Assembly (NCBI GenBank): GCA_964016885.1
Contig: OZ024746.1
Coordinates: 72,664,001-72,728,000, forward strand
Source of the DNA: Eledone cirrhosa
Lineage: Eukaryota
DNA length: 64,000 nt
Direction: 5' to 3'
Shown here: in pieces, positions 718 through 64,000 of the stretch
How the letters are laid out: each line of letters starts with the position of its first letter
How positions within the stretch are numbered: the first letter of the stretch is position 1
Notes under the pieces: model-generated
What the model was told of the DNA's origin: nothing
What the model saw: the letters and a program-made list of their open reading frames with translations, nothing else
Database searches by the model: none
Program-made: the position numbers and the translations under genes

Positions 718-2582
718 TATCATCATCATGATCATCATCGTTTAAGGTCTATCTTCCATGCTAGCATTGGTTTAGACAGGAATTGTCCCACTTGAGGCAA
801 GATTGGTTGTATTGCTCGTAGAGGACTGTCTGGCAGGTTTTCTACGGCTAGATGCCCTTCCTAACACCAACCACGTTTACAGTGTGGGCTGGGAGGTTTT
901 TACCGTGTTACCTACACGGCCACATTACAGCGTGGACTGTGTGTTTTTTTGTTGTGACACAACCTCATTTATTTAGGACTGGATACAGAGAAAAGGGTGG
1001 TGTAGATGGGGGTGGGGGTAGTGGGATGGGGGTGTTATTTTGGTTAAGAGGTGCCTACTGACTGTAGGTTTCGCTTTGTACTTAGGCAAGGCGGGTCTTC
1101 TGTATTACTGCGTAGCACCAAAGATCTCGGTCCAGTGACATTGTCTTAGAGAGGGGTAAGTGTGTAAGGTCGGAATTTATCAAATCATCCCAGGTTTTTC
1201 TGGGTCTGCCTACTCCATAGCTTCCATCAATTTTGATCGCCCTGCACATTTTTATACAGCTGTCGTCTTTCATGTACATCACATGACCATACCAACGTAG
1301 TCTTCTCTCGAGTAAACAGCATCTCATCCTTCTTATTCCTAATTTCTCACTTAGTTCATTTATGCTTTGCCATTCACATATATTACTATTACACATCCAA
1401 TGGAGCATGCAAGCTTCGTTCCTTTCCAGTCTGCGCAGATCCTCTGCACACAATGCCCATGTCTCACTGCCATGTAAACATTGCTGTTCATATGCAGGCA
1501 TCATACAATCTGCCTTTCATTTTTAGAGAAACCTTTAGCGGCCAATAGTGGTATAAGCTCTCTGAACTTTTTCCATCCCGTTCTGACTCTGGCTACTGTA
1601 CTTTCAGAGCACCCACCTCCACTGCTGATTTTGTCACCAGGTAACGGAAGGTGTCCACTATTTCTATAGAACCATCTGGGCAATGGAAGGAGCTAGTATC
1701 CTGAGGGCACTTGCTGCTACTTATTGCACCTGAGCACTGGCCACATATAAAATCTATGTTCTTAGTTAGCTTACCTGTGATCCCACTACATCTTTTATGC
1801 TCCCATACTTTGCATTTGGGACATAAAATGGAGTTTCTGCCTACTCCTTTCCTACACACTGAGCATGGCCATTTCCCAGAGGGGCCCAGTGCTCTATTTT
1901 CCTTCCTACATACTAGAACTTTAGTCTTAGACAAGTTAATTTTAAGGCCTTTTGGTTCTAGGCCATGCTTCCATGTTTGGAATTTCTTCTCTAGTTCAGC
2001 CATTGATTCAGCTATGAGCGTTAGATCATCTGCATATAGAAGTTCCCATGGGCAGCCGGTCTTGAACTCCTCTGTTATAGCCTGAAGGGCAATAATAAAT
2101 AGGAGGGGGCTAAGGACAGAGCCCTGATGAACACCAACTTTTACGCTAAATTCTTCACTATATTCGTTGTTAATTCTAACCTTGCTGACTGTTTCTTTAT
2201 ACATGGCTTGTATAGCTCTCACAAGCCATTCATCAACACCTAGTTTTCTAAGAGCCCACCAGATAATGGAGCGGGGGACTCTGTCAAAGGCTTTCTCCAA
2301 GTCAACAAAAGCTAAGTATAGGGGTTTACTTTTAGCTAGGTACTTCTCCTGTAATTGTCGTACAAGGAAAAGAGCGTCTGTGGTACTTTTACCTGACACA
2401 AACCCAAACTGCATTTCATCTAGGTCAATTCCCTCTCTGATTAGTTGCGCTATAACTCTTTCTGTGACCTTCATGACCTGGTCATTTAATTTAATGCCTC
2501 TACAGTTAATGATGATGCTGCTACGCCAGTCATTTGGTATGACCCCATTCTGTATGACTTGGTATACTATCCGGGTGACCAT
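718..2582 (-). mobile_element. RTE-clade LINE, 5'-truncated, frameshifted; RT plus PHD-like Cys finger, (GAT)n 3' tail
   Basis: ORF 1593-2582 has FVDLEKAFDRV, GVHQGSVLSPLLF and LLYADD, then CSVC...CPKC..H.RC...CGQC. ORF 1082-1504 has LHGSETW, RRLRWYGHV and GRPRKTW. A (CAT)n tail lies at ~718-740. Confidence 0.92.
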
Positions 2583-2611
2583 AGTGTATATATATAATAT
2601 ATATATTTATA

Positions 2612-3680: not shown

Positions 3681-3744
3681 ATATATATATATAATATATA
3701 TATATATATTATTAGTTATGTAATAAACAACATAAGATAATTAT

Positions 3745-3805
3745 TTCATTAACCAGTGGTTTCTTGAAGACAGATGTTATATCTGTCTTCGGTCGTCAGA
3801 ATGAA
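3745..3805 (-). ncRNA. Minimal type I hammerhead ribozyme (mirror copy)
   Basis: Reverse complement of the 3887-3947 motif: TTCATT CTGACGA [stem II] GAAA CCACTGG TT AATGAA. Confidence 0.75.
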
Positions 3806-3886
3806 TAAAAAACATGGTGTTTTTATTAAATATGGATTTGAAAATGATTTTCAAATCCATATTTAATAAAAACACCATGTTTTTTA

Positions 3887-3947
3887 TTCATTCTGACGAC
3901 TGAAGACAGATATAACATCTGTCTTCAAGAAACCACTGGTTAATGAA
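3887..3947 (+). ncRNA. Minimal type I hammerhead ribozyme
   Basis: Stem I TTCATT/AATGAA; core CTGACGA 3893-3899; 11-bp stem II TGAAGACAGAT/ATCTGTCTTCA; GAAA 3929-3932; palindromic stem III ACCA-C-TGGT; GUU cleavage triplet. Confidence 0.78.
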
Positions 3948-4154
3948 ATAATTATCTTATGTTGTTTATTACATAACTAATAAGCACTGTAGCCTACATA
4001 GAGCACTCTTTTTTTCCTGTACCTTTCCGACGGAAATACTTCATTTATATATTATTATATATACATATATATATATAACAAAGGAGCTGTAATAAGGAAC
4101 CAGATGGACCATAACGCACCAGAGTACTCAATACTTAGGGTAGTAGAGTGGGTA

Positions 4155-4273
4155 ATAGGAAAATGTATGACACCGACAGCAGTGCTCAAGCCGTTTCGAC
4201 GGCTATTTCTGGACTATTCCAGAAATAGCCGTCGAAACGGCTTGAGCTCTTCCGTCGAGGTCATACATTTTCC

Positions 4274-4276
<3 letters not shown>
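4155..4276. repeat. 122-bp inverted repeat/hairpin element
   Basis: ATAGGAAAATGTATGAC...GTCATACATTTTCCTAT, with inner perfect arms GCTCAAGCCGTTTCGACGGCTATTTCTGGA / TCCAGAAATAGCCGTCGAAACGGCTTGAGC. Confidence 0.88.
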
Positions 4277-5330: not shown

Positions 5331-5426
5331 TATATATATATGTAAAACATAAACAGAATAACAACACAATCGGTACAGTATATGGAAGGTATATATTAGG
5401 TTAACGCTTGATATAGCAGGAAGAGG

Positions 5427-5464
5427 TTCTTAACGTTTCGGACGCTAGTCCTTCATCAGAAGAA
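5427..5464 (-). ncRNA. Minimal hammerhead ribozyme (GAAACGUU type)
   Basis: Minus strand reads TTCTT CTGATGA A-GGAC-TAGC-GTCC GAAAC GTT AAGAA; 5-bp stem I, canonical core. Confidence 0.75.
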
Positions 5465-5635
5465 AAAATGAGAAATAAATTAGATTAAGGGGACCGGCGG
5501 GATGGAATTGAAAAAAATGTCTATATATTTGTATCGTCCTGTACTGTTCTGTGCCGTCTCTAATGTTTTTCTTCGTGTTAGCCCTTGTGGCTAATAAAGA
5601 AACCATTATTTATATGTATATATATATTATTATTG

Positions 5636-6598: not shown

Positions 6599-6724
6599 AG
6601 AGTCGTATTTATGATATGTATATATGTATCTTGAGTGACTAGCACTTGAGTTTCGCGGGGTCAACCGCTAATTTATATATTATCTATATATTCATATAGT
6701 CAGTTCAAAAACTGGGAAATTATC

Positions 6725-7363
6725 ATGAAGAATATATCTTTCAGGACGAATTCAAAAGAATGTCACTTTTGTTGCGACACTGAATCTGCAAGTGAGCCAA
6801 CAAAGGAAGAAAGGCGGGGACGTCTGAAACAATCTCGCTGGAATCCGCCTCCACGAGAACGCATTGCCCTAGTAAGTAAATCTGGTCGACAAAACATTGG
6901 ATACCGAGGACGAAGGCCCATCTTCTTTATCAAAGATTTTTATTTCACTTTACTTGACATCCAATGGCGTTGGACTATTGTATGTTTTTTTATCATATAC
7001 TTCGCTGTTTGTTTGTTTTTCACCGTCGCTTGGTACACCCTCTGCTGGATCAATGGCGACTTCGATCACCTGGGAGAACCAAATTATGAACAGTGTGTCG
7101 TAGGTATGACCGGCTTTACCAGTTTGCTTCTTTTCTCGATCGAGACCCAGACTACAGTCGGGTACGGTTTGGTCCACCCGAACGTGTCCTGCCATGGTTC
7201 CTTGGCCATCCTTTACTTCCAGGTTACTGTTGGACTTATTGTGGAGATGTTTCTACTCACCTACATTGTATCCAAGTTTTTCCGGCCTTCCAAACGTACC
7301 CATATGATTCGCTTCAGTGAAAATGCTGTGATATGTCAAGAGGACGGCGTTCTTTGTCTCCAG
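6725..7363 (+). CDS. Inward-rectifier potassium channel (Kir/KCNJ family), coding exon 1
   Basis: LLDIQWRW slide helix/M1, FSIETQTTVGYG pore and filter, M2, RPSKR, FSENAVI. Donor CAG|GTATGT at 7364, phase 0. Upstream acceptor TAG at 6697-6699 with branch-point-like GCTAAT. Confidence 0.93.
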
Positions 7364-8771
7364 GTATGTCTTCTGAATTTTTTTCTATTAAATATCACAA
7401 CTTTTAAACTTCAAACCGCTTGTATCCAACATTAGGAATCTTTGGCCAATCTTGAAAGAAGAAACTGAAAATATCTCGTCCAATTCACCCTTAGGGTTAC
7501 CTAGTTGACTCGTGTGTGTGTATATATATATATATGTGTGTGTGTGAGCATACGAAATGAATCTGGGAATTGGACGAAATATTTTCATTTTTTTTTCTCA
7601 AGAACTATTGCCAGTGACAATTCCACCTTTTTATTTTTTTCAACAATTTTTTATGTTTTGTTTATTTATTATTTTTGTGGTGGTGGGATGGGGTTAAATC
7701 ATTCGTTATTTCCCTTTCAGAATTCATAATACGAATTTTTTTAGAGCTACAAATTGTTTTACAATTGTAAAGCCTTGAAACAATTTATATTATATCGATT
7801 TGTTTGGAGACAACTTGTATCGAACCATATAAATTGGATAGACGAAAACTGTCGTAAGGATTGTACCTGCAATTTGAAGGTCCGATTTTGTCGCACAGAA
7901 TTGTGTTCATAATCGTAGATCATATGTTATTCATCCTTTTTTTCTGGAAAAAAAAAATGGTTATTGTTGGATCAGAACTGACATGAGGATAAACATCATT
8001 GGGTTTTGTACTTAATCTAAAGAAACTAGTATTTAAATTAGGTGCTTTTTCAACTTAAAATTTCGCTTGCTTTTAATGTTTGTTTGTTTTGTTTTTTTCA
8101 TTATTTCAATTTTCCAAAAAAATATTTTCACATGATGTATTTAATCATCGATAATAAAACTTCATAATGAATTGAATTGATTCAGTGTTTCTAGACTCTG
8201 CCTGTCTGTGTGTGACGGGAGGTGCCGCTAAATTATATTTCATCCACCACCACCACCACATAGTTGATCTTGTTAAGTATTTTTTCCTCCTTTCCTCCCT
8301 TGCAAACAACCCCTTCTTTGCAGCCCCATTGCTTTCCAGTCTCCCACTTCAGTCTACCAGCACTCCCAAGAGTGGAGGTAACGCCCACTTTCGGAATCAC
8401 TGAATTAAATCAATATTTTTTTGTTTGTTTTATTATTCATTTTATTTAACTGTTTATTTCATCAATCGATAAAGTAAACAAGATCAATGATATAAACTTA
8501 TTGATTCTATAGCTGATATATAAATTTATTTGAATGCGGGAGGGGTACATTTGGTAATCTGTAATAAATATAAATTAATTGGGAGAACTAATTGATTGAT
8601 GAATTATATACATTTATTGTGGGCGGGGAGAGTTTATTGATTAATAAATTATACACATTTATTGGGGGGTGGGGAGTATTTATTAATATATCATATATAT
8701 GTGTGTGTCATCTATGGGAAGCATTTATATATTTATGCATATGAATTTATAGGGAGAGGGGAAGCATATCT

Positions 8772-9085
8772 AATAATTGTTTCTATTTTTGGTACAAGGC
8801 CAGCAATTCTCCCAGTGCGTTACTGGTACTTTATTTTATCGACCCCGTAAGTATGAAAGGCAAAGTTAACCTCGGCAGGATTTGAACTCGGACCGTAATG
8901 GGGCGTATCTAATAATTGTTTCTACTTTTGGCACAAGGCCAGCAATTACCAGTGCATTATTGGTACTTTATTTTATCGACCCCGTAAGGATGAAAGGCAA
9001 AATTAACCTCGGTGCGATTTGAACTCAGACTGTAAAGGGACGTAACTATGCTGAAAAGCATGGTGTCTGACCGTCTACCAATCCA
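8772..9085 (-). mobile_element. Two tandem (ATT)n-tail SINE copies, antisense in Kir intron 1
   Basis: Reverse complement of the 5636-5972 family. Confidence 0.85.
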
Positions 9086-9620
9086 ATTTATCGGAATCGC
9101 TCAAAAACTTTATCACTGTTTCTTAGTGGGTTTTTTTCCCTTTAGTTTCAGATATAACTAGTTTAGTGCCTTACCCCACCCGTGCATTTTTTCCATGAAA
9201 CTTTCTTAAATGAAAATTTTGCGGATAATCGTTTTCCGTTAAGTACTCTCGGGTCTCGAGAGTAATTTTTCAGATTTCTTTTTCATACACATACACCACT
9301 TATTAATTTTTGCTAATCTATCTTTGACGAAATTTTATTTTAAGTGGTAGCATTCCGGGTGAAATTTAAAAAAATACATAAATACTTTCGTTATTGTATA
9401 GTTCGTTCGTTAATACTTTCATTTACTGAAAATTTTCGATTTGTTTGCGCGTGACTAAACATAAATTTGGAAATTATTTCAACATGCCATCCAATTTCGT
9501 GTTGATAATGAACGATATCAATCAAGATAATGAATGTCATTTCTACAATTAGGTATTGTGAAAAAATTATGGTTAATTTTGGTTTTCTTTATAATTTCGT
9601 CAGCATAATCGTTAGCTACA

Positions 9621-10281
9621 TCATATATATAAAACTGAGGATGTCTGTCTGTGTGTGTGTGAGTTTGAATCCCTAAAACTCGAGAAGTACCCAACCGACT
9701 TTTTTCAAACTTTACATGTGTATTACTTATGTTTCAGGGAGTGTTATGCACATTAAAAAATTCAACTTTTTGATCCCCTAGCATTAGGTGAAAAACTGCG
9801 TTTTTTTTTTTTTGTTTTTTTTTAGCTTTTTATGGGTTTTCAGAGGCGTTACGTCAGATCGATTTCCTTGAAATTGTAACTATGTATTAGTCAGTCTCTT
9901 CTTCATACCGTGAGCAAAGAAAATCCAACTTTGTTATGGCCTAGGGCCCGCATTAGGTGAAAAACTTCATTTTTTTTTTTTTTTTCCAGCTTTTTAGGGC
10001 CTTTTTTAGGCGTTACGTCTAGCCGATTTTCCCGAAATTTCAAGGCATATTATGCACATAAAAAAAAATTCATTTTCTTGATCACCTAGGGCTCGCATTA
10101 GGTGAAAACCTGCATTTTTTCTGCTTCATCGAGGAAAATCTTAAAGATTATCCAGCCATCAGAGTATTCGGTTTATTTTCTTTACATATTGTCGAGGCAT
10201 GCAGTTTTTCCACGATTAGGTCTGTTGGCGGCCCGCGTTCCAAAATACCTTATCTCGTGCAACGCCGGGTACCACTGCTAG
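9621..10281 (+). mobile_element. Non-autonomous Helitron
   Basis: A|TC 5' end followed by TATATATAAAA...GTCTGTCTGTGTG; 3' GC-rich hairpin CTCGTGCAACGCCGGG then CTAG|T; internal ~150-170-bp repeats (GCATTAGGTGAAAA at ~9781, ~9950, ~10096). Confidence 0.82.
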
Positions 10282-10394
10282 TAGAAAAGATATCTCTGCA
10301 AATTTACATTTTAAAAATAAGCATTGGAAAGAAAGTCGGTATAGGATGCAGCACTAAGCTGTAGGTATGCAATCAGTGTTTACTTGCAGACCGA

Positions 10395-10592
10395 CAATTG
10401 TTTCTACTTTTAGACACAAGGCCAGCAATTTGAAGGGAGGAGAATGTCGATTGAATCGACCCCAGTGCGTTACTGGTACTTTATTTTATCGACCTCTTAA
10501 GGATGAAAAGCAAAGCTAACCTCGGCGAGATTTGAACTCAGAGTGTAAAGGGCCGTAACTCTATGCTGCAAAGCATGTCCGATTCTGCCAAA
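10395..10592 (-). mobile_element. (ATT)n-tail SINE copy
   Basis: Same core as the 5636 family, reverse complement. Confidence 0.82.
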
Positions 10593-10795
10593 AAGCTTTT
10601 CACTCCCCCCTTTCTTTCTTTTTATATATCTAGCACCACACTATCCAATGCTTGCTTTTTTTTTTAAAAATGTAGTAGGATGAGATCTGAGGAAGATTTA
10701 GCTACCACCATTCCTTGTAGATCGAGGCTCCCCTCTTCGTTGTTTTGTTTCCTGTCACACTATTTTTATTTCAAGAATCATCCGCCATCATTATA

Positions 10796-10829
<34 letters not shown>

Positions 10830-10841
10830 TTTTTTACAAAG

Positions 10842-11106
10842 ATCCGTGTTGGAGACCTCCGTAATAAACCCCTCCAGTCAGTTACGACCCAGGGTGTATT
10901 GGTGCTGGAATCTGTCACTGGTGACGACAATGTCTGTCCTTTTTATCAACAGCAACTCTGCTTCACTGTCGACTGTATGCCGCGTGATATCTGCCTCCTA
11001 TGGCCGGTCTTACTCACACACCGTATCACTGAAGATAGTCCATTCTGGAGCTGTGGTCCGTTTGACTTCAACACTAAACGTTTTGAAATCATAATATTCC
11101 TCGAAG
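10842..11106 (+). CDS. Kir channel, coding exon 2
   Basis: Poly-T tract plus AAAG acceptor; IRVGDLR...LLWPVLLTHRITEDSPFW...FEIIIFLE; donor G|GTAGGT at 11107, phase 1. Confidence 0.92.
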
Positions 11107-11386
11107 GTAGGTTGATATGGAAACAAGGTGGAAAGTCGAGCGTTTTACTTAAAATCATTAAAAAGGGTAAATTATTTGAAACACTGGAAACAAAAATATA
11201 AGAGAAAGAAAACACTTAAATTCCGTTTTATTTTTTTCCAGTAACTTTATTTCCATTCATAGTATGTAAATGAAGTATACTTGCGTGTTTATATTTGTCT
11301 TGAATAACTATGCATGAGTGAGTGAAGTTATATAGGAATATATATATGGCTTCTTGGGTATGTCACCATTTATAAAACAAATTTTG

Positions 11387-11447
11387 TATTTTATCTGATG
11401 AGAAGGTACCAAAATTTTGGTACCCTTGAAATACATATAATAAAATA
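11387..11447 (+). ncRNA. Minimal hammerhead ribozyme, sense orientation in Kir intron 2
   Basis: 8-bp stem I TATTTTAT/ATAAAATA; CTGATGA 11395-11401; stem II GGTACCAAAATTTTGGTACC; GAAA 11428-11431; TACATA-TA. The flank ATGGTTTTATAAATATAGTTT is shared with 62881. Confidence 0.72.
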
Positions 11448-11634
11448 AATATGGTTTTATAAATATAGTTTCCATTTATTAATATCATTGATATTATACT
11501 CCAGAAAATCTATAGAGTGCTTTGAATCTGTTGTAAATAAATTTGTTGAATAACCAACAAATTAAATATCTCTTTGCTTATGTATATATATATATAATGT
11601 GTGTATGTGTATGTAAGGGCAGACAGACTGTAGG

Positions 11635-12060
11635 ATGTGACAGTGGAGGTGGATGTTCTCAAAGTAGAGTAGCCAGAGTAAGAACTGGTTGGAAAAAAAG
11701 TTCAGGGAGCTATTATCACTGTTGCCTACAAGAGCTTTTCCCCCTTAGAATGAAAGGCTTGTGTGCGAATGGAAATGAGACCTGGGCATTGTGTGCAGAA
11801 AACCTATGAAGATTGGAAAGAAATGAGGCAAGCATGCTCCGGTGGATGTGTATTTGTAATGTTCATGAACGTTGAAGCATCAATGAGCTGAGAAAAACTG
11901 GCATAAGAGAAACCAGGTACAGTGTGCAGGAGAGAAGAATATGATGGTATGAACGTGTGCTGCATATGGAGGATAACAGCTGCATAAACAAATGCACTCA
12001 AAGTCAAGGGAACCTATGGACAAGGTGATTGGCGACATGCAGTATTACAGAAGACTCACC
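11635..12060 (+). mobile_element. Decayed RTE LINE 3' fragment
   Basis: SGGGCSQSRVARVRTGWKK and NGNETWALCAE match the 1082-1640 copy. Confidence 0.8.
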
Positions 12061-13735
12061 TCCTTACACAAGTGGGACAGAACAAACATGGAAAGGATGG
12101 TAAATGAAAAGACGGCGGTCCCCGTCTGCAACCACCCCCACCTCCCATCTTTGTTCCCCCTCTCCATCTAGTCAACCCACATACTTTAGGCCTCCCAGTT
12201 TAGTATTCCCTCACATCCTTCATCGTCCAACCCATGCCATGGAAAGGCAGACGCCGCCTCCCACCAGGCTTCCTCTACTTTAGACCCCCACAACTACTCA
12301 CATTCTTCATCGTCAACAACACAGTACCCACATAGATCGCCAATTCGCCTTCCTTGTCTAGCTCAGGCCAGCAAGAAAAGTCGGTCCCCCACACACATAA
12401 CATACTACAAGATGTTATTCACTCTCTACAAGGCCAGCCCCACCACCTGGTGCTTACTCTCCTACTGTAGGATAACTCCCTTTCTCCCATCATCAAACAA
12501 GATATAGTACTCCCCGCTTCCTACCCCTACTCTCACTTTACACACATACATGCATGCAACTCACATTACTGCCTTCCCAGCCTGGTCAAAGATACAGGTG
12601 GTGTCCTAGAGTTGTAATAGGATAGTGCTGGTACCACAATAAAATGTTCCCAGTCAACATTGTGGCTGGTGCCAAGAAAAAAACTGCTCGTGAGGGTGCT
12701 TGGTTGTTCCAGCGCATCAGCCCTGCCATCACCCGAGGTAACACTGCAAGCGTGCTGGCTTGCCTAAAAAATTATTAAAGAAGTTTCCCAGTGCTCTTCG
12801 CAATACTGTTATCTTTTGCTCTGGTAGCAGCTCAGTTGTCCACCCCTTTCGCTTGCCTTTAGTATGTGGTCCTAGAATTGTGTGCTACCTGTTTCTGTGT
12901 TTTTTTTTGTTTTCTTTCCTTTTCCTTTATATTATATTTGTGTGCTTTCGTTCTGTAAGCATTGTATTATTATATTTCTTTTTTATACAACTGTGAAAAA
13001 ACCATACAGTATATTGACCCTGTAAGGTCATGCTCGCATTGCAATGAACTGCTCTCAGTACACACCGTAAGGTGGTTAACATTAGGAAGGACATCCAGCC
13101 ATGGGATCCATGTCAAAAATGGAATGTGAGCTAGAAGTGGTCACCTGATCGGGACAACCTATCTAACCCATGCAAGCATGGAAATTAGAGCAGTAGTGTT
13201 GATGTTCACTGTGTGTGTATATGTATGTATGTATATATGTTGGGTCACTCTTGAGTGCTACTGGTAACATGTAACCCAGTACAACCTGCAAGACAAAAAA
13301 CAAAACCTGACAAAGGGAGGAAGAATTCATAAGAGTCAACGGCCATCCAAAAATGTGTAAATATGTATATACACATGTATATATGTATGTGCGGGGACAT
13401 AGAAATAGTCGGCCTGGGTACCCGATCACGCAGTTAAACCACGGGGAGTGAAGGACTCTTAGCCTTTATCAGTGCATTCTTCGAGGAGAAGGCAACTCAG
13501 GAAACTGGGATAACTCCAACATAAACCTGCGGCTCAGTAGTTACCAATGATGGTGATCTTTTCTTCTTTTCAGGCTATAACTACTGTTGCTCAGAGAGTA
13601 GGATTGGCTCAGTGCACAGTCTTTCCTCACTTTTAAAAGAATCTTCACACACATTGCACGATAGAATTAATTAATAATTATTAATAATGGTATATCGTGC
13701 AATGGCCATACTTGAGGGGGCAGCCATCATGTATG

Positions 13736-13783
<48 letters not shown>

Positions 13784-14013
13784 TATCTAGCTATCTATCC
13801 TTATACACATACACACTTGTTGTGGGGGAGGTCGCGGCCTAGTTATGTAGTTAAGGTGTTTACTTTGTGTGAAATTTTGGAAAAAAAATTTTGGAGGAGG
13901 CAAAGTAACAAATCTTTGAAATTTTCGGTTCAAAAGTCGGTATTTGCTTAAAAATGTTTCCTCAAAAAGAGAAAGTTCTCTCTCATCTCTGTCTTTTCTT
14001 TCTTTTCTGCTAG

Positions 14014-14243
14014 GTGTGATTGAGACCACAGGAGAAATGTGTCAAGCCAGAACATCCTATTGCCAGGATGAGATACTTTGGGGTCACCGTTTCCAGCAAA
14101 TAATTCACTTTTCCCAATCAACGGAGCGTTGGTGTGTCAACTTAGATAATTTTGATAAAATCACTGAAGTTACAATACCAGAGTTCAGTGGCAAACATAT
14201 AGAAGCTGTCTTCACAGGTTCGATGCTTTCACATCACTCTTAA
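14014..14243 (+). CDS. Kir channel, coding exon 3 (joined CDS 1134 nt, 377 aa)
   Basis: Pyrimidine tract plus TAG acceptor; G-loop (G)VIETTGEMCQARTSY, EILWGHRF, NFDK; TAA at 14241-14243; phases match exon 2. Confidence 0.9.
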
Positions 14244-15288: not shown

Positions 15289-15343
15289 ATAAGGTGAAAC
15301 AATTGTTCTCGGTATGGTGAACTAACTGTTGTGTAACCACTTC

Positions 15344-15348
<5 letters not shown>
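15289..15348 (+). repeat. Truncated copy of the hammerhead-bearing element family at 63330-63450
   Basis: TAAGGTGAAACAATTGTTCTCGGTATGGTGAACTAACTGTTGTGTAACCACTTCTATAT is the reverse complement of ~63330-63387; the CTGAGGA half is missing. Confidence 0.85.
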
Positions 15349-19882: not shown

Positions 19883-30650
<10,768 letters not shown>

Positions 30651-31950
30651 CAGGGTGTTCGGGATAAATTTGACAAAATAATATTTGGTTGTTTTTTCAG
30701 ATGTTTTAAATTCATTCATGCCCACTAGGCTTTATTTGAAAGTTTAAACCCTCCTTCATTCATATACGTGATGACAACGAGAATGGATGACTGGGAGCCA
30801 CCTGAATCATGGAAGAGAATAACTTGTATCATGATTCGCGCCGGCCATTAAAATAAGGAGATTATGGTCGCTGCTCAATGCTCCCTGAACACTGTAAAAA
30901 CAATCCGGCATGAACAGGAGAATTGCAATGGAGACTACGAGGCTGTGGCTAGAAGAAAGAAACATAACAGAAGATCTGATTGCTGTCGCACAGCAGAATT
31001 CATCGAAAAGCTGCAGAAAAATGTGTTGGAGGACCCTGGCATCGGAATTCGGTCTTTGTCGCGTGAATTGAATGTTTCAGCCTCTACTATGAAAATTGCA
31101 CTCAATGAAGACCTTCGCTACTACTCATACAAGCGTCGCAGAAGTCAACTTCTCACAGAAAAGGCCCGCGAAAATCGTCTGACAAAGGCGAAGAAACTTC
31201 TGAGCAAAGTGAAACATCCTGCTGAAGCACAAACAATCTGGTTCTTTTCCGATGAGAAAAACTTGTGCCAATATCAAAAACGCAACACGCAGAATAACAG
31301 ATGACTTGCATACAGTCCAAAGGACACTCCTCGAGTCATGCAGACTAAATTTTCCCAAACTGTCATGGTTTTTGGATGTGTGTCCTCCGAGGGTGATGTG
31401 ATGCCTCCGCATTTTTTCAAACAGGGTCTCAGGTTGAATTCAGATGCCTACGTGGAATTGCTAACCACTGTAGTTAAGCCCTGAATAACAAGGGTAGCCA
31501 ATAATAGGCCGTATGTATGGCAGCAGGATTCGGCCCCCTGCCACACCTCGGGGAAAAGTCAAAAATGGTTGTCAGCCAATTTTTACAACTACACCAGTCC
31601 CAATGTTTGGCCTCCGAACTCCCCTGATCTTAACCCGATGGACTATTATGTATGGGGCGCTGTAGAGAAAGACACCAATCGCCGTGCCAGTACTACAAAA
31701 GGCCAGTTAATCGACAGAATTAAAGTAGTTTTTGAGGGCCTTCCCAGGGAAAGTGTAAAATCAGCTTGCTCCAGGTTCTGGGCCCGGATTGAGGCTGTAA
31801 TAGACGCTAATGGCGGTTATTTTGAGTAAAACTCTTTGACAATAGTGTAATTTCCTTGTCCATTGAATTTCTTTTAAATCAAATAAATGTTGTAGATACC
31901 AAGCATTTCTTTTTCCTGATGAAACTGTCAAATTTATCCCGAACACCCTG
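30651..31950 (+). mobile_element. Full-length Tc1/mariner DD37D (maT-type) transposon with nonsense-interrupted transposase (30771-31829)
   Basis: Perfect 25-bp TIRs CAGGGTGTTCGGGATAAATTTGACA; TA on both sides; FSDEK, QQDSAPCH-37 aa-SPDLNPMDY; three in-frame stops and no frameshift. Confidence 0.93.
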
Positions 31951-48926: not shown

Positions 48927-49787
48927 TCACCAATTAGTGTTGCCGCCATATCCTCCTCCGTACGGTCCCATACCACGTTGTGTGTAGGCACCACCACCAC
49001 GTCCCCGGGTGGGCCCACCACCTGAGCCGTTACCGTAGCCGGTACCAAAGTGTCCATATCCATCGAATCCCTCTCCGTAACCGTGGTAACCGCCTGCTCC
49101 GTAACCATCTCCATAGCCTTGAGGTCCGTAATTCCATCCCTGACTTGCATAATGTCCTCCAGGGTAGGCTCCTCGCATGCCACCGCGGGCACCCATCATA
49201 CTACCACCGCCACGGCCGCCGCGCATGGCCATATTCTGATTGAGTTCGTTCTTCGATACAGCTTTTTTCACCTCGACATTTTTACCGTTCAACATGAAGT
49301 GTTTCTGGATCACACATTTGTCTACGCAGTCGTGGTCATCGAATGTGACGAAACAGAAGCGTTTCGGTTTGCCAGTTGTTCTGTCTTTAATCATTTCGAT
49401 TTTCTCCACTTCTCCATAGTTGCTAAATACTTCACGAACTTGGTCCTCTGACGTACTTTCGTTCAAGCCACCAACAAACATTTTGTTGACGGTGATTTTG
49501 TTCTCCTGGGCCTCCTCACGGGGCATTGCCCTTTTCGTGTCAACGGCTTTGCCATCTATCGTGTGTGGACGTTCTTTCTGAGTCATATCTAAACTGGCTG
49601 GGTCCTTAAACGTTACGAATCCAAATCCTTTTGATTTGTGCGTAGTGCTGTCCTTCATTATAACGCAGTCGACCACATCGCCCCATTTTCCGAAATGTCC
49701 CCGCAAGTTATCTTCTGTGGTTTCGAAGTTTAAACCGCCGATAAATAACTTACAATTTCTCTCCTGCTCTCCAAATTTTTCTGGCAT
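48927..49787 (-). CDS. HNRNPA1: hnRNP A1/A2-B1 (A/B family) RNA-binding protein, intronless CDS, 286 aa; symbol is family-level only
   Basis: RRM1 KLFIGGL/KGFGFVTF, RPHTIDGK..DTKRAMPRE linker, RRM2 KMFVGGL/FCFVTFDDHDCVDK, RGG boxes, G/Y-rich low-complexity tail, RGMGPY PY-NLS. Confidence 0.93.
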   Translation of the reverse strand: MPEKFGEQERNCKLFIGGLNFETTEDNLRGHFGKWGDVVDCVIMKDSTTHKSKGFGFVTFKDPASLDMTQKERPHTIDGKAVDTKRAMPREEAQENKITVNKMFVGGLNESTSEDQVREVFSNYGEVEKIEMIKDRTTGKPKRFCFVTFDDHDCVDKCVIQKHFMLNGKNVEVKKAVSKNELNQNMAMRGGRGGGSMMGARGGMRGAYPGGHYASQGWNYGPQGYGDGYGAGGYHGYGEGFDGYGHFGTGYGNGSGGGPTRGRGGGAYTQRGMGPYGGGYGGNTNW

Positions 49788-50646
49788 TTTGTTTTGATAT
49801 GGTTATAGTTTCTACTTGAATTGGGGGAAGAGAATCTTTTCAAATAACACCGATAGATTTTTTTATCTAGTGTTAGGTTTTTTTAAGAGCGAGAGGAATA
49901 CAACGAGACCTCCAGAGACAGTGAGTAAAATACAGCAAAGAGGCGCAACTAGCAATGCAAATGATAAACCACGTGGTTTACCATTTAATCACTAACGGAT
50001 AAAGACCACCAGGTAGCGCGACCGGTCTCGTTCAAAAGGCCGCTGCTTAGCAAACAAGAGAGATTAGAAGAAGGAGGAGGTAAAGCAAAAATAGAAAGAA
50101 GGAGGAGATAAAGCAGAAATAGAAGGGGTAAAGAAAGCAAGTAAAAAAGAGAAAGAAAATGGCAAAATAATTAATTAGAGGAAGAAGAGAAAAGGAGTGT
50201 AAAGAAGAGTGGCGGTGAAGGAAGACAAAAATATGAGTGCGGGTAAGAGGGTTGAAGGAAAAGGATGTAGTAGGAGAAGGTGAAAAAACGAGGAAAAAGA
50301 AATTTGAGTTGGACAAAGGAGATGGAAAGATTGTAACGAAAAATAGTGTGAAAGGAGAGATAGAGAAAGAGTCTACGTTGAATTAAAGGCGGAGGGAGTA
50401 TATAAAAATAGGAGTAACTGGAAGAGGATGAAAAAGAATATGAGAACAACGGATGGACAAAAAATATATATGGAAAGAAACAGGAGTAATTGGCGGAGGG
50501 AGAGAAAAGGAGGAATGGCAGTAAGGCATTACGACATCCGGTTTCTAGAATTAGATATTGGAAAAGTATATCAATTGAAATTTTATTGATTGTATACTAG
50601 ATACACGTAATATATTTATGTCAATATATATATATATTACGATAAA

Positions 50647-60335: not shown

Positions 60336-61133
60336 TTAGAGAGTGGAAGTTGTTATCACACGGATGTCAACATAAAGAGATATGGGGTTTGAAAGGAAGA
60401 GAAGATAAGTGTCAGAGTGTATAGTTGTCATGGATGTGGGAAGAAACCTCACCCACCAAGGGTTAGGGAATAGTGTCAAGATATTTAGATAAGAGCTCCA
60501 TAGAGCAGTTGCAAAAAGAGAGAAGGTTGTAACGATAAACTCCTTCATATACGATTGAAAGTGTATTTGATTAGTTCCACATGGATGATGGTAAAGTTTT
60601 TTCTTTGCTCCTTTCCAAAAGGATTCAATCACCTGCATATAGATAGTTTCTTGTCGAGGATCTACAAAATGTTTTTCTTGGATAACTAAGCTCTGGACTG
60701 ATTCCATACCAAAAGGATGATTTATTCCACTATATGCAGTCCACCCACTTGGCATTACTAAACTTTCTTCTAGAATGTTCTTTTCTCTATGCGACTTCAA
60801 TATACATTCTGCTCTGTCACCAACAGGTGCAAGGACATATTCCATTGCCCCACCAGGCTCCAATCTACCAAATAGCCAAGGATAAGAACCCATCTTAACC
60901 TCATATTTCCAACACCAACAAAACAAACAAGCTTTGTCTTTTTCCACAAATTGAATATTTCCAGTAGAACCGGTGGAAATCATGTAGAGAATATTTCCAT
61001 ACAGAACATTCATTCTTTGCTTCTTTGTAAACAGGTTACTTTTTGCAGCATCTGACTGAATTTGTGAGAGAGCCAATGGGCACATGGAAAGTGATGCTGC
61101 CTCCTCTCTTCTGCTGTAGTAAGTCTGCATCAC
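60336..61133 (-). pseudogene. Merlin (ISXO2/IS1595-like) transposase remnant
   Basis: WLFGRLE, PVGDR, SGWTAY, HFVDP, QVIESFWKGAKKKL and FQSYMKEF align to Merlin motifs (WVFGGIE, SDGWKAY, NHS..FVDP, IESLW). The catalytic D appears replaced; no TIRs found. Confidence 0.72.
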
Positions 61134-62700
61134 CAGAAGATTCCAAGTGGAAGGAAATTCTGAAGAAAAAAGAAAAGAGGAAATCTTATGATATCTGGTT
61201 CAAAATAACACTGGTAAGAAACCTATTATCAGATAGGACTGAGGATATTATGTTTCCATACTTAGATGCCCATATTTAAATTAAATCTCATCACAAAAAT
61301 ATCTCAAGATTTAAGTACCAACATAATACACTCGTGTATATACACATTTTTCACAAAAGTTTTCCATTGAAAACAATTTTCAAAATAAAGAGTTTGGAAG
61401 TATTTAATAATATATCTTTCTTATTATTTATTTGGCATTTGGAGTATAATTCAACAGATTCTTACATAAAATTATGATGGATTATAGAACTCAGGGCAGT
61501 GTTAGGTAGTTTGATATAGACAGGGTTAAGGGGATAATCATGAATAGGACATTTTTATCATAGCTCTGCTGGATCAGAGGCAAACAACATTTACTTGCAA
61601 GCTAATATGGAAACTAATGGATAATCACTCAAGAGGATAGACATAACTTGATGCATCATACTCTTGCACAGTGGCTGGTGTCACGATACCAACTTAACTC
61701 AATGTCCTGCAGCACATGAAACTGCATTAGCAAGGCATTTTTGAAAATTACAAATCAGCACTATGACTTAAAAATTGAAATCATTAGTTTACAAATTTTT
61801 ACAACAATACTGTCCACTAATAAATAAACTATAAACATTTGATTTAACAAACCTATTTTTAGATATTTTCTTTTAATCATTAAAAGATCTTAAGAACTCA
61901 TGTTCCAAATGCCACCTTAATGGCAGTAATATTACTAAATCCCACCAAATTTTTGATTTTGTTTCCCGTTAATTTTTACACCTTCCTTAACAAAAATATA
62001 TATATATTATATATTGGTCATGTTGCTGATACAACAAAAAGCACTGTCCACTTTTAAGTAATTGTGACTTGACATAAATCACCTGGTCATGCTGTATAAA
62101 GTGGTCTACTGGTGATTAGATGAATGAAAAAGTACCCAGCTGTAAAAACCAAACCAAAAACAGTTCTGTATGAGCAAGACAGTTCGGAAATATCCCCAAG
62201 AAACAAATTCTCTTAGGAAAAAATATTAAGTAAAACAAGTAAATGAAAATAGGACCACCTTTATATTTGTAGAACTGTCACAGCAGGACTTAGGTGACGA
62301 GGGGAGGGCTGTTCTCTAAAAATCGGGACTGTTGAAGCAGGAAGAATGGAAATCATCATAATCATAGTACATAACTTACTATTGCCATTGAAGGATAGTT
62401 TGTATATACATACATAAAAAAAAAAAAATCACATGTTGAAGTTATTTGATGCATATACACACACACAGCAAAAACCAACCAAACTGAGTGTTTTCTGTTA
62501 TTAATTCTGGCAATATTATTACAACAATATGACCCTCCCCAAGTATATATATATATATTATATATACATGTAAAGTTATATTTAAAATTGTTGGGTTACA
62601 ACTAGTAAATATTTATAACTGATATAAAAGCACTCGACAAATATTTGGAGTATATTTACAATATTAAATAAATGGAAAACTATATTTATAAAACCATATC

Positions 62701-62766
62701 TATTTCATTATATATATTTCGGGGATATCATATTAACAATATGCTATGCCTTCATCAGACAAAATA
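62701..62766 (-). ncRNA. Minimal hammerhead ribozyme (mirror copy)
   Basis: Reverse complement of 62812-62877. Confidence 0.7.
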
Positions 62767-62811
62767 CAATATAAACAGTTTTATAAACAGTCTATAAAAC
62801 TGTTTATATTG

Positions 62812-62877
62812 TATTTTGTCTGATGAAGGCATAGCATATTGTTAATATGATATCCCCGAAATATATATAATGAAATA
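62812..62877 (+). ncRNA. Minimal hammerhead ribozyme
   Basis: Stem I TATTTTGT/ATGAAATA (2 GU pairs); CTGATGA 62820-62826; long stem II; GAAA 62858-62861; palindromic TATATA; TA cleavage site. Confidence 0.72.
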
Positions 62878-62917
62878 GATATGGTTTTATAAATATAGTT
62901 TTCCATTTATTTAATAT

Positions 62918-62984
<67 letters not shown>

Positions 62985-63365
62985 ATGTGTTGAGGTGTCA
63001 ATACATATCTAATATGTATGATCATGTTTCTCAAAAACTCAAGGGATCTTGGTTCAGAGTGTTAATTATTGTTCAAATTTAAAAGATACATGTAGAGAAA
63101 GAGTCATATATTGTTTGAGAAACGTACCATTTGTACATGTACATGTATAGAGAGATCAAATAATATTCAGGAAAATGGTAAAAAGGTCGATGATTGTTTT
63201 ATCATCTTAAAGTATGTATATTTTCCTAAATATTATTTGATGTCTCTCTTTCTCTCTCGAGGTGTACAAAATGCTGTTTCTCAAACGATATATGACTTTC
63301 TCTCTATAAATTTATATTATATATATATATATAGAAGTGGTTACACAACAGTTAGTTCACCATAC

Positions 63366-63403
63366 CGAGAACAATTGTTTCACCTTAGCGGATCCTCAGC
63401 TCG
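63366..63403 (-). ncRNA. Minimal hammerhead ribozyme
   Basis: CGAG CTGAGGA T-CC-GCTAA-GG-T GAAAC AATT GTT CTCG; palindromic stem III ACAATTGT; stem II is very short. Confidence 0.62.
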
Positions 63404-63450
63404 TAATGGACCATTACGAGCTGAGGATCAGCTAAGGTGAAACAATTGTT
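63370..63450. repeat. 81-bp palindrome with a hammerhead core on each arm
   Basis: Symmetric about A63410 with one mismatch; the + arm has CTGAGGA...GAAACAATTGTT but has lost the 3' strand of stem I. Confidence 0.88.
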
Positions 63451-64000
63451 TTCTACCTCATCCCATGGACTGAGTGCTCTACCACTACGGATATTACCTT
63501 CCAGTGTTCTACCACTATATATATATTTATACACACACGTTTAGTAAAGAGTAAAAATTTACAGGAAAAAAAACAAAAACCCTATTACATTTATATATCC
63601 GTAATATCAAATGTTTATTAGGGATTTATAACACCAAAATATCCATAAAATTTGGCTACGAATTTGATATTCAGATACTAGCTTAAGAACATTATCAAGA
63701 TGACTCCTAATTAGTAATTATCCTTGCACTAATTAATTCTCATATACGAAAGGAATATAGCATATTACCAGTAACCATTTGGTTCCAGTAGTTAACTACT
63801 GCATTTTTATTTTTATTAAATAGACTGGAATGAAAATAGGATGTGATGATGGTCATACTTTTCTGTGAAATAAAATCGACGTGCAAAATCCACATCTACA
63901 AGAAATATATACCAAATCACTCCATACTGCGTTTAAATTGGGGACTGAATTTTAGCCCTTCCGTTACTATTTAAGTCTATTCAGAGCTGACGTACAATGG

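What the first reader, a model, noticed from the sequence alone, without database searches (positions are those of the whole stretch)
3709..3983. Foldback DNA element made of two back-to-back hammerhead ribozymes
Seen: a 275-bp palindrome with a 1-nt centre and one mismatch; each arm carries a complete minimal type I hammerhead pointing outward. The same architecture recurs with unrelated sequences at 62657-62921 and 63370-63450, so it is a recurring design. Known: minimal hammerheads with palindromic stem III mark Penelope-like element terminal repeats and retrozymes, and usually cleave as dimers. Inference: these are small non-autonomous, ribozyme-only foldback retroelements. A read-through transcript meets the antisense arm first and should lock the ribozyme in a 137-bp duplex (an ADAR/Dicer substrate), whereas RNA starting near the centre could cleave. 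That would be a built-in antisense on/off switch. Nearly identical arms imply recent origin or ongoing arm conversion.
Basis: partly seen in the sequence, partly recalled or inferred. Interest (0 to 1): 0.78.

Follow-up and report, generated by a model that had tools for sequence, protein, structure and literature searches.

The report
Truncated inverted Penelope-like retrotransposon insertion
The palindrome with a hammerhead-ribozyme motif on each strand is real, but it is two back-to-back end pieces of a common Penelope-like jumping gene, likely a dead by-product of one insertion whose centre likely marks the start of the element's RNA, not a new self-copying switch.

Summary
Observation confirmed: 3709-3983 has 137-bp arms, one mismatch, a 1-nt centre and an outward-facing minimal hammerhead motif per arm. 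The unit really runs to 4047: the right arm has a 64-nt tail, and both ends sit in TA runs. The arm is the terminal repeat (pLTR) of a high-copy Penelope-like retrotransposon with Hydra-clade motifs; at other loci it leads into an RT/GIY-YIG ORF, and a sister copy has the same head-to-head palindrome in front of an open 715-codon frame. Inverted, one-tailed, 5'-truncated insertions are the published PLE structure. Short foldbacks are common (10 of 29 other loci) with differing junctions, so there is no discrete foldback family; arms show no conversion (private changes shared 1, one-arm 73). The loci at 62.6 and 63.3 kb are two more families of this kind. One new detail: arms stopping at this centre mostly carry an extra G (20 of 26), as expected for a copied RNA cap, so the centre likely marks the transcription start; either arm can be longer, favouring priming on both strands. 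Cleavage and expression are untested. The scan reported the same kind of structure before in two other genomes.

The parts
3681..3708 (.). TA-rich target run, left flank
   Evidence: sequence
3709..3845 (-). Inverted, tail-less pLTR arm; ends at the tail boundary like 10 of 29 other foldbacks
3745..3805 (-). Minimal type I hammerhead motif of the left arm; its private change breaks a further stem II pair, and its lowest-energy fold is not the hammerhead fold
3846..3846 (+). Single centre G, not templated by the parent on either side; likely the reverse-transcribed RNA cap (inferred)
3847..3983 (+). Forward pLTR arm; 3847 is the likely transcription start of the element (inferred)
3887..3947 (+). 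Minimal type I hammerhead motif: 6-bp stem I, core at 3893, 11-bp stem II closed by C.A, GAAA at 3929, palindromic stem III, predicted cleavage after U3941 (untested)
3984..4047 (+). 64-nt tail present on one arm only; in 5' pLTRs it runs on into the 5' UTR and ORF
4048..4076 (.). TA-rich target run, right flank
62593..62921 (.). Same structure from a second family (B): tail 62593-62656 on the left, hammerhead cores at 62758 (-) and 62820 (+); parent has a 738-codon frame with 36% identity to P0001
63333..63517 (.). Same structure from a third family (C): tail on the right, 37-nt deletion in the right arm; no ORF partner was looked for

Best explanation
The palindrome is two head-to-head copies of the hammerhead-bearing terminal repeat of a Penelope-like retrotransposon with Hydra-clade motifs, sitting in a TA run, and was likely made in one insertion in which both target strands primed reverse transcription and both cDNAs likely ran off the capped 5' end of the element's RNA. 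Shown: the arm is the pLTR of ORF-bearing elements; one arm has the tail and one lacks it; junctions vary between copies; both arms of an insertion share subfamily alleles and then diverge independently. Inferred: the RT/endonuclease nicks both strands of (TA)n; one 3' end starts copying at the tail end (about 201 nt from the RNA start) and the other at the inner site (137 nt); starting in the 5' pLTR of an uncleaved transcript, both run to the RNA start at 3847, one adds a C opposite the cap (the centre G), and the two cDNA ends are joined. The two hammerheads are passengers. The copy has no ORF and is likely inert; a read-through RNA would fold into a long duplex as a side effect.
For: 2103 first-look candidates for the arm. 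Inverted second arm in 8 of 16 longer stretches, 0.3-6.5 kb away; RT-thumb/endonuclease coding sequence upstream of an arm in the same orientation at L031, L032, L037, L040. L139: TA run, inverted tail-less arm, arm plus tail, 715-codon open frame, arm plus tail (arm 80% like the window's). Window-type arms (91.6% and 94%) lead directly into the 5' UTR and a broken copy of that ORF at L155/L194 and L158/L195. P0001 has RWK, DKT, YRDD, CxCX5C, CxxC, CxH and no DKG, the Hydra signature (PMC8557442 section 11). Tail-selected sample: 10 of 29 other loci have an adjacent tail-less inverted arm, junctions from 123 to 217 nt from the end, 4 of 29 long enough for two whole hammerheads. Six exact foldbacks at this centre have six different junctions. 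The tail-less arm reaches further 5' than the tailed arm in L037, L088, L105 (family A) and L173, L177, L188, L190, L193 (family C), the reverse in L084, L089, L109, L112 and L164, L168, L169, L185: neither arm can always be a copy of the other. Arms concordant at 69 of 71 diagnostic sites against 52% in shuffles. Extra G before the start purine in 20 of 26 arms that stop there; 11 of 16 after dropping the window, one twin arm and 7 microhomology cases (P=0.004); 4 are solo arms with TA run, G, then the arm. Family B: 35 head-to-head pairs and 0 tail-to-tail among 100 listed hits, and 14 of 15 hotspot junctions stop 1-6 nt into a TCACT motif. Literature passages: inverted copy plus one-sided tail (PMC8557442, PMC3846280), both strands cut and extended, two internal RT starts, hammerhead not needed (PMC11167929), untemplated G as cap copy for L1/SVA (PMC4859970).
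Against: No intact ORF of the window's own subfamily was found; the open 714-715-codon frames belong to a sister subfamily. Pfam gave no RT or GIY-YIG hit on P0001 or on the family B protein; the endonuclease call rests on motifs and on a GIY-YIG hit in homologue P0003. No tree with reference PLEs was built. The tail (64 nt) is longer than the 30-40 bp in the papers. The G excess is not significant against run-on copies before the 13 unrelated-repeat matches are removed (Fisher P=0.24), arms preceded by T could not be scored, and several G cases overlap microhomology. Unequal arms could also arise by later deletion. In family B four junction types were seen twice and L210 has three changes on both arms. 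No read across the centre was seen.
Confidence: 0.8

Rival explanations
1. Solo remnant: a full-length element like L139 inserted here and recombination between its two direct pLTRs removed the ORF, leaving the inverted 5' pair plus tail. Same parent, different history.
For: L139 carries this palindrome, centred within a few bases of the same site, at its 5' end; such a deletion would leave exactly the window's structure.
Against: Most short foldbacks have junctions inside the pLTR, often inside the hammerhead, and are far commoner than full-length copies (11 exact 5' pLTR-UTR junctions of the window type), so short forms arise without this route.
Confidence: 0.08
2. Self-priming foldback: one cDNA folds back at its 3' end and is copied to make the second arm, as proposed for rotifer Penelope elements.
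For: Arms share subfamily alleles (69 of 71); PMC3846280 reads junction palindromes as self-priming (passage); many junctions fall at short natural palindromes.
Against: Insertions where the tail-less arm is longer and the shorter arm has the tail cannot come from one cDNA copied on itself; private changes shared by both arms are rare (1 against 73; 1 against 125).
Confidence: 0.06
3. One reading: a non-autonomous, ribozyme-only foldback retroelement that spreads as a unit and uses its antisense arm as an on/off switch.
For: A junction hotspot exists at this centre and in family B (14 of 35 pairs at 195-210 spacing); the centre is likely a transcription start; D. virilis Penelope has an internal promoter (PMC2377424 passages); the duplex is very stable.
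Against: Six of six junctions at this centre differ; family B has 12 junction types in 15, and one repeated type has the tail on opposite sides; 0 of 30 unbiased family C copies have the window's centre; many junctions destroy the hammerhead; the window's rare cleavage-site allele also occurs in a copy that runs on into the 3' UTR (L009).
Confidence: 0.04
4. Assembly or amplification foldback artefact.
For: No listed read piece bridged the centre.
Against: Arms differ at one base that is present in a read-derived contig; the left end is the family's tail boundary; similar foldbacks elsewhere have arms diverged by 3.3% on average.
Confidence: 0.02

Closest known systems
Hydra clade of C-terminal endonuclease Penelope-like elements (Craig et al. 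2021, PMC8557442; passages and section 11 read)
   Same: Single ORF with RWK, DKT, CxCX5C, CxxC and CxH motifs, no CCHH; hammerhead in the pLTR; (TA)n targets; inverted 5'-truncated copy and one-sided tail.
   Different: Unit about 4.7 kb rather than under 3 kb; tail 64 nt; hammerhead has C.A (or U-A) at the base of stem II; the window copy is only the two ends.
Inverted pLTR insertions of Adineta vaga Penelope (Arkhipova et al. 2013, PMC3846280; passages read)
   Same: Head-to-head inverted pLTRs, palindromic junctions, optional tail on one arm, TCACT initiator-like motif.
   Different: They infer self-priming; here unequal arms favour two primed strands, and an extra G at the run-off point suggests a copied cap.
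Anolis Poseidon element PAc (Frangieh et al. 2024, PMC11167929; main text read)
   Same: Two RT start sites define the tail; both strands cut and extended at AT-rich DNA; uncleaved RNA is the template.
   Different: Different clade; their ORF starts inside the hammerhead, here about 290 nt downstream of its cleavage site; they do not treat inverted junctions.
Minimal PLE hammerheads and non-LTR retrozymes (PMC4209133 parts 1-2 of 4; bioRxiv 10.64898/2026.07.22.740005 part 1 of 5)
   Same: Type I motif with short palindromic stem III; PMC4209133 already notes pairs of such motifs 100-700 bp apart on opposite strands.
   Different: Retrozymes are head-to-tail tandem units; this is an inverted pair, and one transcript carries only one sense motif, so it cannot dimerise within one RNA.

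Membership tests
Endonuclease-positive PLE insertion | Hammerhead-bearing pLTR flanking a single ORF | tested here: met
   L139, L140, L143 (sister subfamily); L155/L194 and L158/L195 (window-type arm into ORF)
Endonuclease-positive PLE insertion | Inverted 5'-truncated copy and a tail on one side only | tested here: met
   window 3709-4047; 10 of 29 other loci
Endonuclease-positive PLE insertion | RT plus C-terminal GIY-YIG domain recognised by profile | tested here: inconclusive
   No Pfam hit on P0001; YRDD and GIY/YIG-like motifs present; homologue P0003 hits PF01541
Hydra clade | RWK, DKT instead of DKG, CxCX5C linker, CxxC and CxH, no CCHH | tested here: met
   DKT/S in 119 of 120 and CxC-C linker in 118 of 120 homologues
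Hydra clade | Insertion into (TA)n | tested here: met
Hydra clade | Placement in an RT tree with reference PLE clades | not tested
   no named reference set was fetched
Minimal type I hammerhead | CUGANGA and GAAA core, NUH triplet, stem I closing, palindromic stem III | tested here: met
   stem II keeps pairing across three subfamily sequences
Minimal type I hammerhead | G10.1-C11.1 pair | tested here: not met
   C.A in 77, U-A in 34, A.A in 3 of 117 copies
Minimal type I hammerhead | Self-cleavage | not testable with these tools
   needs an in vitro assay
Non-LTR retrozyme | Head-to-tail tandem units each with a hammerhead | tested here: not met
   inverted pair only
Non-autonomous foldback or MITE-like family | One fixed structure shared by many copies | tested here: not met
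Non-autonomous foldback or MITE-like family | Target-site duplication of fixed length | tested here: inconclusive
   both flanks are TA runs

The most novel reading that the evidence does not exclude
The centre of these foldbacks is the element's capped transcription start, and if the promoter is internal, each foldback is a ready-made bidirectional mini-gene: it would send out two short hammerhead RNAs, the tailed one carrying both RT start sites and so mobilisable in trans like a SINE, while read-through transcripts would make long duplex RNA that silences the family. Hundreds of such units per family would form a self-seeding, self-limiting layer of PLE minis, and foldback centres would map PLE start sites from DNA alone.
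Probability: 0.12. Interest if true: 0.62.

Novelty: new member of a known kind. Interest (0 to 1): 0.27.

Why it matters
It is mainly a correction: palindromic twin-hammerhead units are routine products of Penelope-like element insertion, not a new RNA switch. The genome is useful for an open question, how PLEs make inverted, one-tailed insertions: thousands of young copies give junction statistics that favour priming on both strands and run-off at a capped RNA end. I found no paper reporting a cap-derived G or start-site run-off for PLEs, but the library lacks most subscription papers and I read no supplements.

Tried and rejected
Fixed-centre family C: the first searches used queries spanning the centre and returned only palindromes with one centre; I suspected a self-copying foldback with an A/T centre, but 0 of 30 position-ordered copies had that centre and the A/T difference is explained by which arm supplies the base. 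Fixed-centre family B: spacing cluster real, junction sequences varied. Arm conversion: rejected for A and C (the shuffle step for C crashed because C has no diagnostic sites). Cleaved RNA as template: 0 of 29 family A loci have a junction at the cleavage site. Rfam: whole-window scan swamped by TA-repeat miRNA models, no hammerhead among the 150 of 474 matches listed, none. Repeat finder swamped by the TA array. DNA search with arm B found nothing, not even itself. Cap-G control: 13 of 16 C cases share one upstream sequence and, in the 5 checked, match only 20 nt of the arm, so they were dropped as an unrelated repeat; 30 of 33 control matches were fetched. Sequencing runs: no RNA holder listed. 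The promoter scan is bacterial and uninformative. No PLE ORF in the window itself; a fragment lies in the 10 kb before it (L226). Earlier-finding look-ups by sequence and by place were empty.

Full report
Observation. The 275-bp palindrome is as described: arms 3709-3845 and 3847-3983, one mismatch (3791/3901), centre G3846, hammerhead cores on + at 3893 and on - at 3799. The right arm alone folds into three helices (-17.5 kcal/mol, 0 of 200 shuffles as good); the left arm's private base favours another fold. The full unit folds as one hairpin of -217 kcal/mol. Two right-arm RNAs are predicted to form the dimer fold through the palindromic stem III (-44.0 against 2 x -17.5). The unit is longer than reported: the right arm runs on 64 nt to 4047, and both ends abut TA runs.

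The arm is a high-copy repeat end. A search of the 3.0-Gb genome G000 gave 2103 candidates, 40 scored. Of the 28 other loci fetched, 5 had an inverted second arm within 1.5 kb; most ran on upstream into a microsatellite-rich stretch. In 16 stretches of 9.9 kb, 8 had an inverted second arm 0.3-6.5 kb away, mostly without the tail, and four loci had RT-thumb/endonuclease coding sequence upstream of an arm in the same orientation.

Parent element. A protein search with that fragment gave 298 matches among 150 scored candidates, many in frames of about 714 codons. L139 reads: TA run, inverted tail-less arm, arm plus tail, 5' UTR, open 715-codon frame, 3' UTR, arm plus tail, TA run; its arm is 80% like the window's. 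A pattern for the window-type tail joined to the 5' UTR gave 11 matches; at L155/L194 and L158/L195 an arm 91.6% and 94% like the window's leads into a broken copy of the same ORF. I found no intact ORF of the window's subfamily. P0001 has RWK, DKT, YRDD, CxCX5C, GIY/YIG-like motifs, CxxC and CxH and lacks DKG, which matches the description of the Hydra clade (PMC8557442 section 11). Pfam gave no useful hit; 1432 of 8000 scored proteins match at E<=1e-20, nearly all unnamed; one carries a GIY-YIG hit. No reference tree was built.

Is the foldback a family? No. Among 29 other loci chosen by the tail, 10 have an adjacent tail-less inverted arm ending 65-77 nt from the element end; their junctions lie 123-217 nt from the end; only 4 keep two whole hammerheads (L102 counted). 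Six exact foldbacks at the window's centre have six different junctions. Family C (63333-63517) has 1288 exact matches of a 38-mer; in the first 30, 16 have an inverted arm (15 adjacent, two of them duplicates), none with the window's centre. Family B (62593-62921) has 2995 exact matches; among the 100 listed there are 35 head-to-head pairs, 0 tail-to-tail, spacing 43-5718 nt, and its parent has a 738-codon frame (L244). This is the published structure: inverted 5'-truncated copy and one-sided tail (PMC8557442 passages; PMC3846280 passages; PMC8969392 passages), and opposite-strand hammerhead pairs 100-700 bp apart were noted in PMC4209133.

Arm history. In 23 family A pairs (window included) the arms agree at 69 of 71 diagnostic sites (shuffled mean 52%, maximum 74%), so both come from one source lineage; private changes are shared once and confined to one arm 73 times, and 1 against 125 in 36 family C pairs. 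That rejects ongoing conversion. The window's single difference is within chance of the family mean (4.6 expected, P=0.058). Against this, L210 of family B shows three changes on both arms, which a distinct source copy would also explain.

Mechanism. Either arm can reach further 5'. A tail-less arm that is longer cannot be copied from the shorter tailed arm, and the tailed arm cannot be copied from a cDNA lacking the tail, so two primed cDNAs are needed unless later deletions intervened. This fits the Anolis element, which cuts and extends both strands, starts RT at two internal sites that bound the tail and does not need hammerhead cleavage (PMC11167929 main text). The window's centre is a hotspot: several 5' pLTRs and arms begin there. 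The parent base before it is T. Genome-wide there are 25 exact matches with G before it and 33 with A or C. Of the 55 fetched, 16 run on upstream and 39 stop; 13 of the 16 C stops belong to an unrelated repeat; of the remaining 26, 20 have G (P=7e-6 against one third), and 11 of 16 after dropping the window, one twin arm and 7 microhomology cases (P=0.004); 4 are solo arms reading TA run, G, arm. Before removing the unrelated repeat the contrast with run-on copies is not significant (P=0.24). An untemplated G is the accepted sign of a copied cap for L1 and SVA (PMC4859970 passages). In family B, 14 of 35 pairs cluster at 195-210 spacing and 14 of 15 junctions examined at 195-244 spacing stop 1-6 nt into a TCACT motif, with 12 junction types (the sample was chosen by spacing, and L233, identical to L230, was dropped). 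I infer that 3847 is the RNA start and G3846 the cap copy. Short natural palindromes at these sites may also attract junctions.

Ribozyme. The core is conserved and stem II keeps its pairing across three subfamily sequences, but the pair next to the core is C.A (77), U-A (34) or A.A (3) of 117, never G-C, and the window has GUU where 107 have GUA. From recall, both lower activity. Each transcript of the palindrome holds one sense motif only. Cleavage is untested.

Context. The unit lies in a nest of repeats: a LINE RT fragment at 1596-2606, another foldback at 4077-4276, and an inward-rectifier potassium channel gene on + from about 6726. Whether that gene's transcript covers the palindrome is unknown.

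Earlier scan notes. Two reports on other genomes reached the same kind of verdict; I had stated my reading before seeing them and did not check their genomes.

Verdict. A real but ordinary truncated, inverted insertion of a new family with Hydra-clade PLE motifs. The switch and the non-autonomous family are not supported. The junction statistics add a modest mechanistic lead. Papers were read as stated under Closest known systems; PMC6765202 and PMC2377424 as passages; no supplements were opened, and those of PMC8557442 may list related families.

Noticed in passing
window 4077-4276: Fourth head-to-head foldback (family D) with a tail on the left; its junction removes the 5' half of a hammerhead-like motif. 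Longer copies (L067, L102, L194) have a variant core, CUUGANA-like, instead of CUGANGA.
   Followed up: partly
window 6650-14240 (+): Inward-rectifier potassium channel gene (Pfam IRK, IRK_C) in at least three coding pieces; likely start codon near 6726, 2.7 kb downstream of the finding.
   Followed up: no
window 11368-11520 and 5341-5520 (-): Two single hammerhead-bearing PLE ends of other families; the first is related to family B and lies inside the channel gene.
   Followed up: partly
window 15290-15344 (-): A 55-nt truncated family C arm in TA/CA repeats.
   Followed up: no
window about 20500-30600: About 10 kb TA/TG-rich array with 7-10% GC and strong G skew.
   Followed up: no
window 48930-49802 (-): 291-codon frame with two RRM domains in one piece.
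   Followed up: no
window 1596-2606 (-), 30852-31826 (+), 60339-61199 (-): LINE-type RT with PHD finger, Tc1-like transposase fragments, ISXO2-like transposase fragment.
   Followed up: no
L157, L159-L163: Six loci share one rearranged unit: inverted tail, tail, 5' UTR, start of the ORF, then a later arm; it may be a small amplified derivative or a duplicated region.
   Followed up: no
L153: Tandem mini-units in which the 5' UTR joins the hammerhead region just after the start codon, a retrozyme-like arrangement derived from this family.
   Followed up: no
G000: 70,305 first-look candidates for the PLE protein and many near-identical 714-codon frames: a very large, young PLE expansion suited to biochemical study.
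   Followed up: partly
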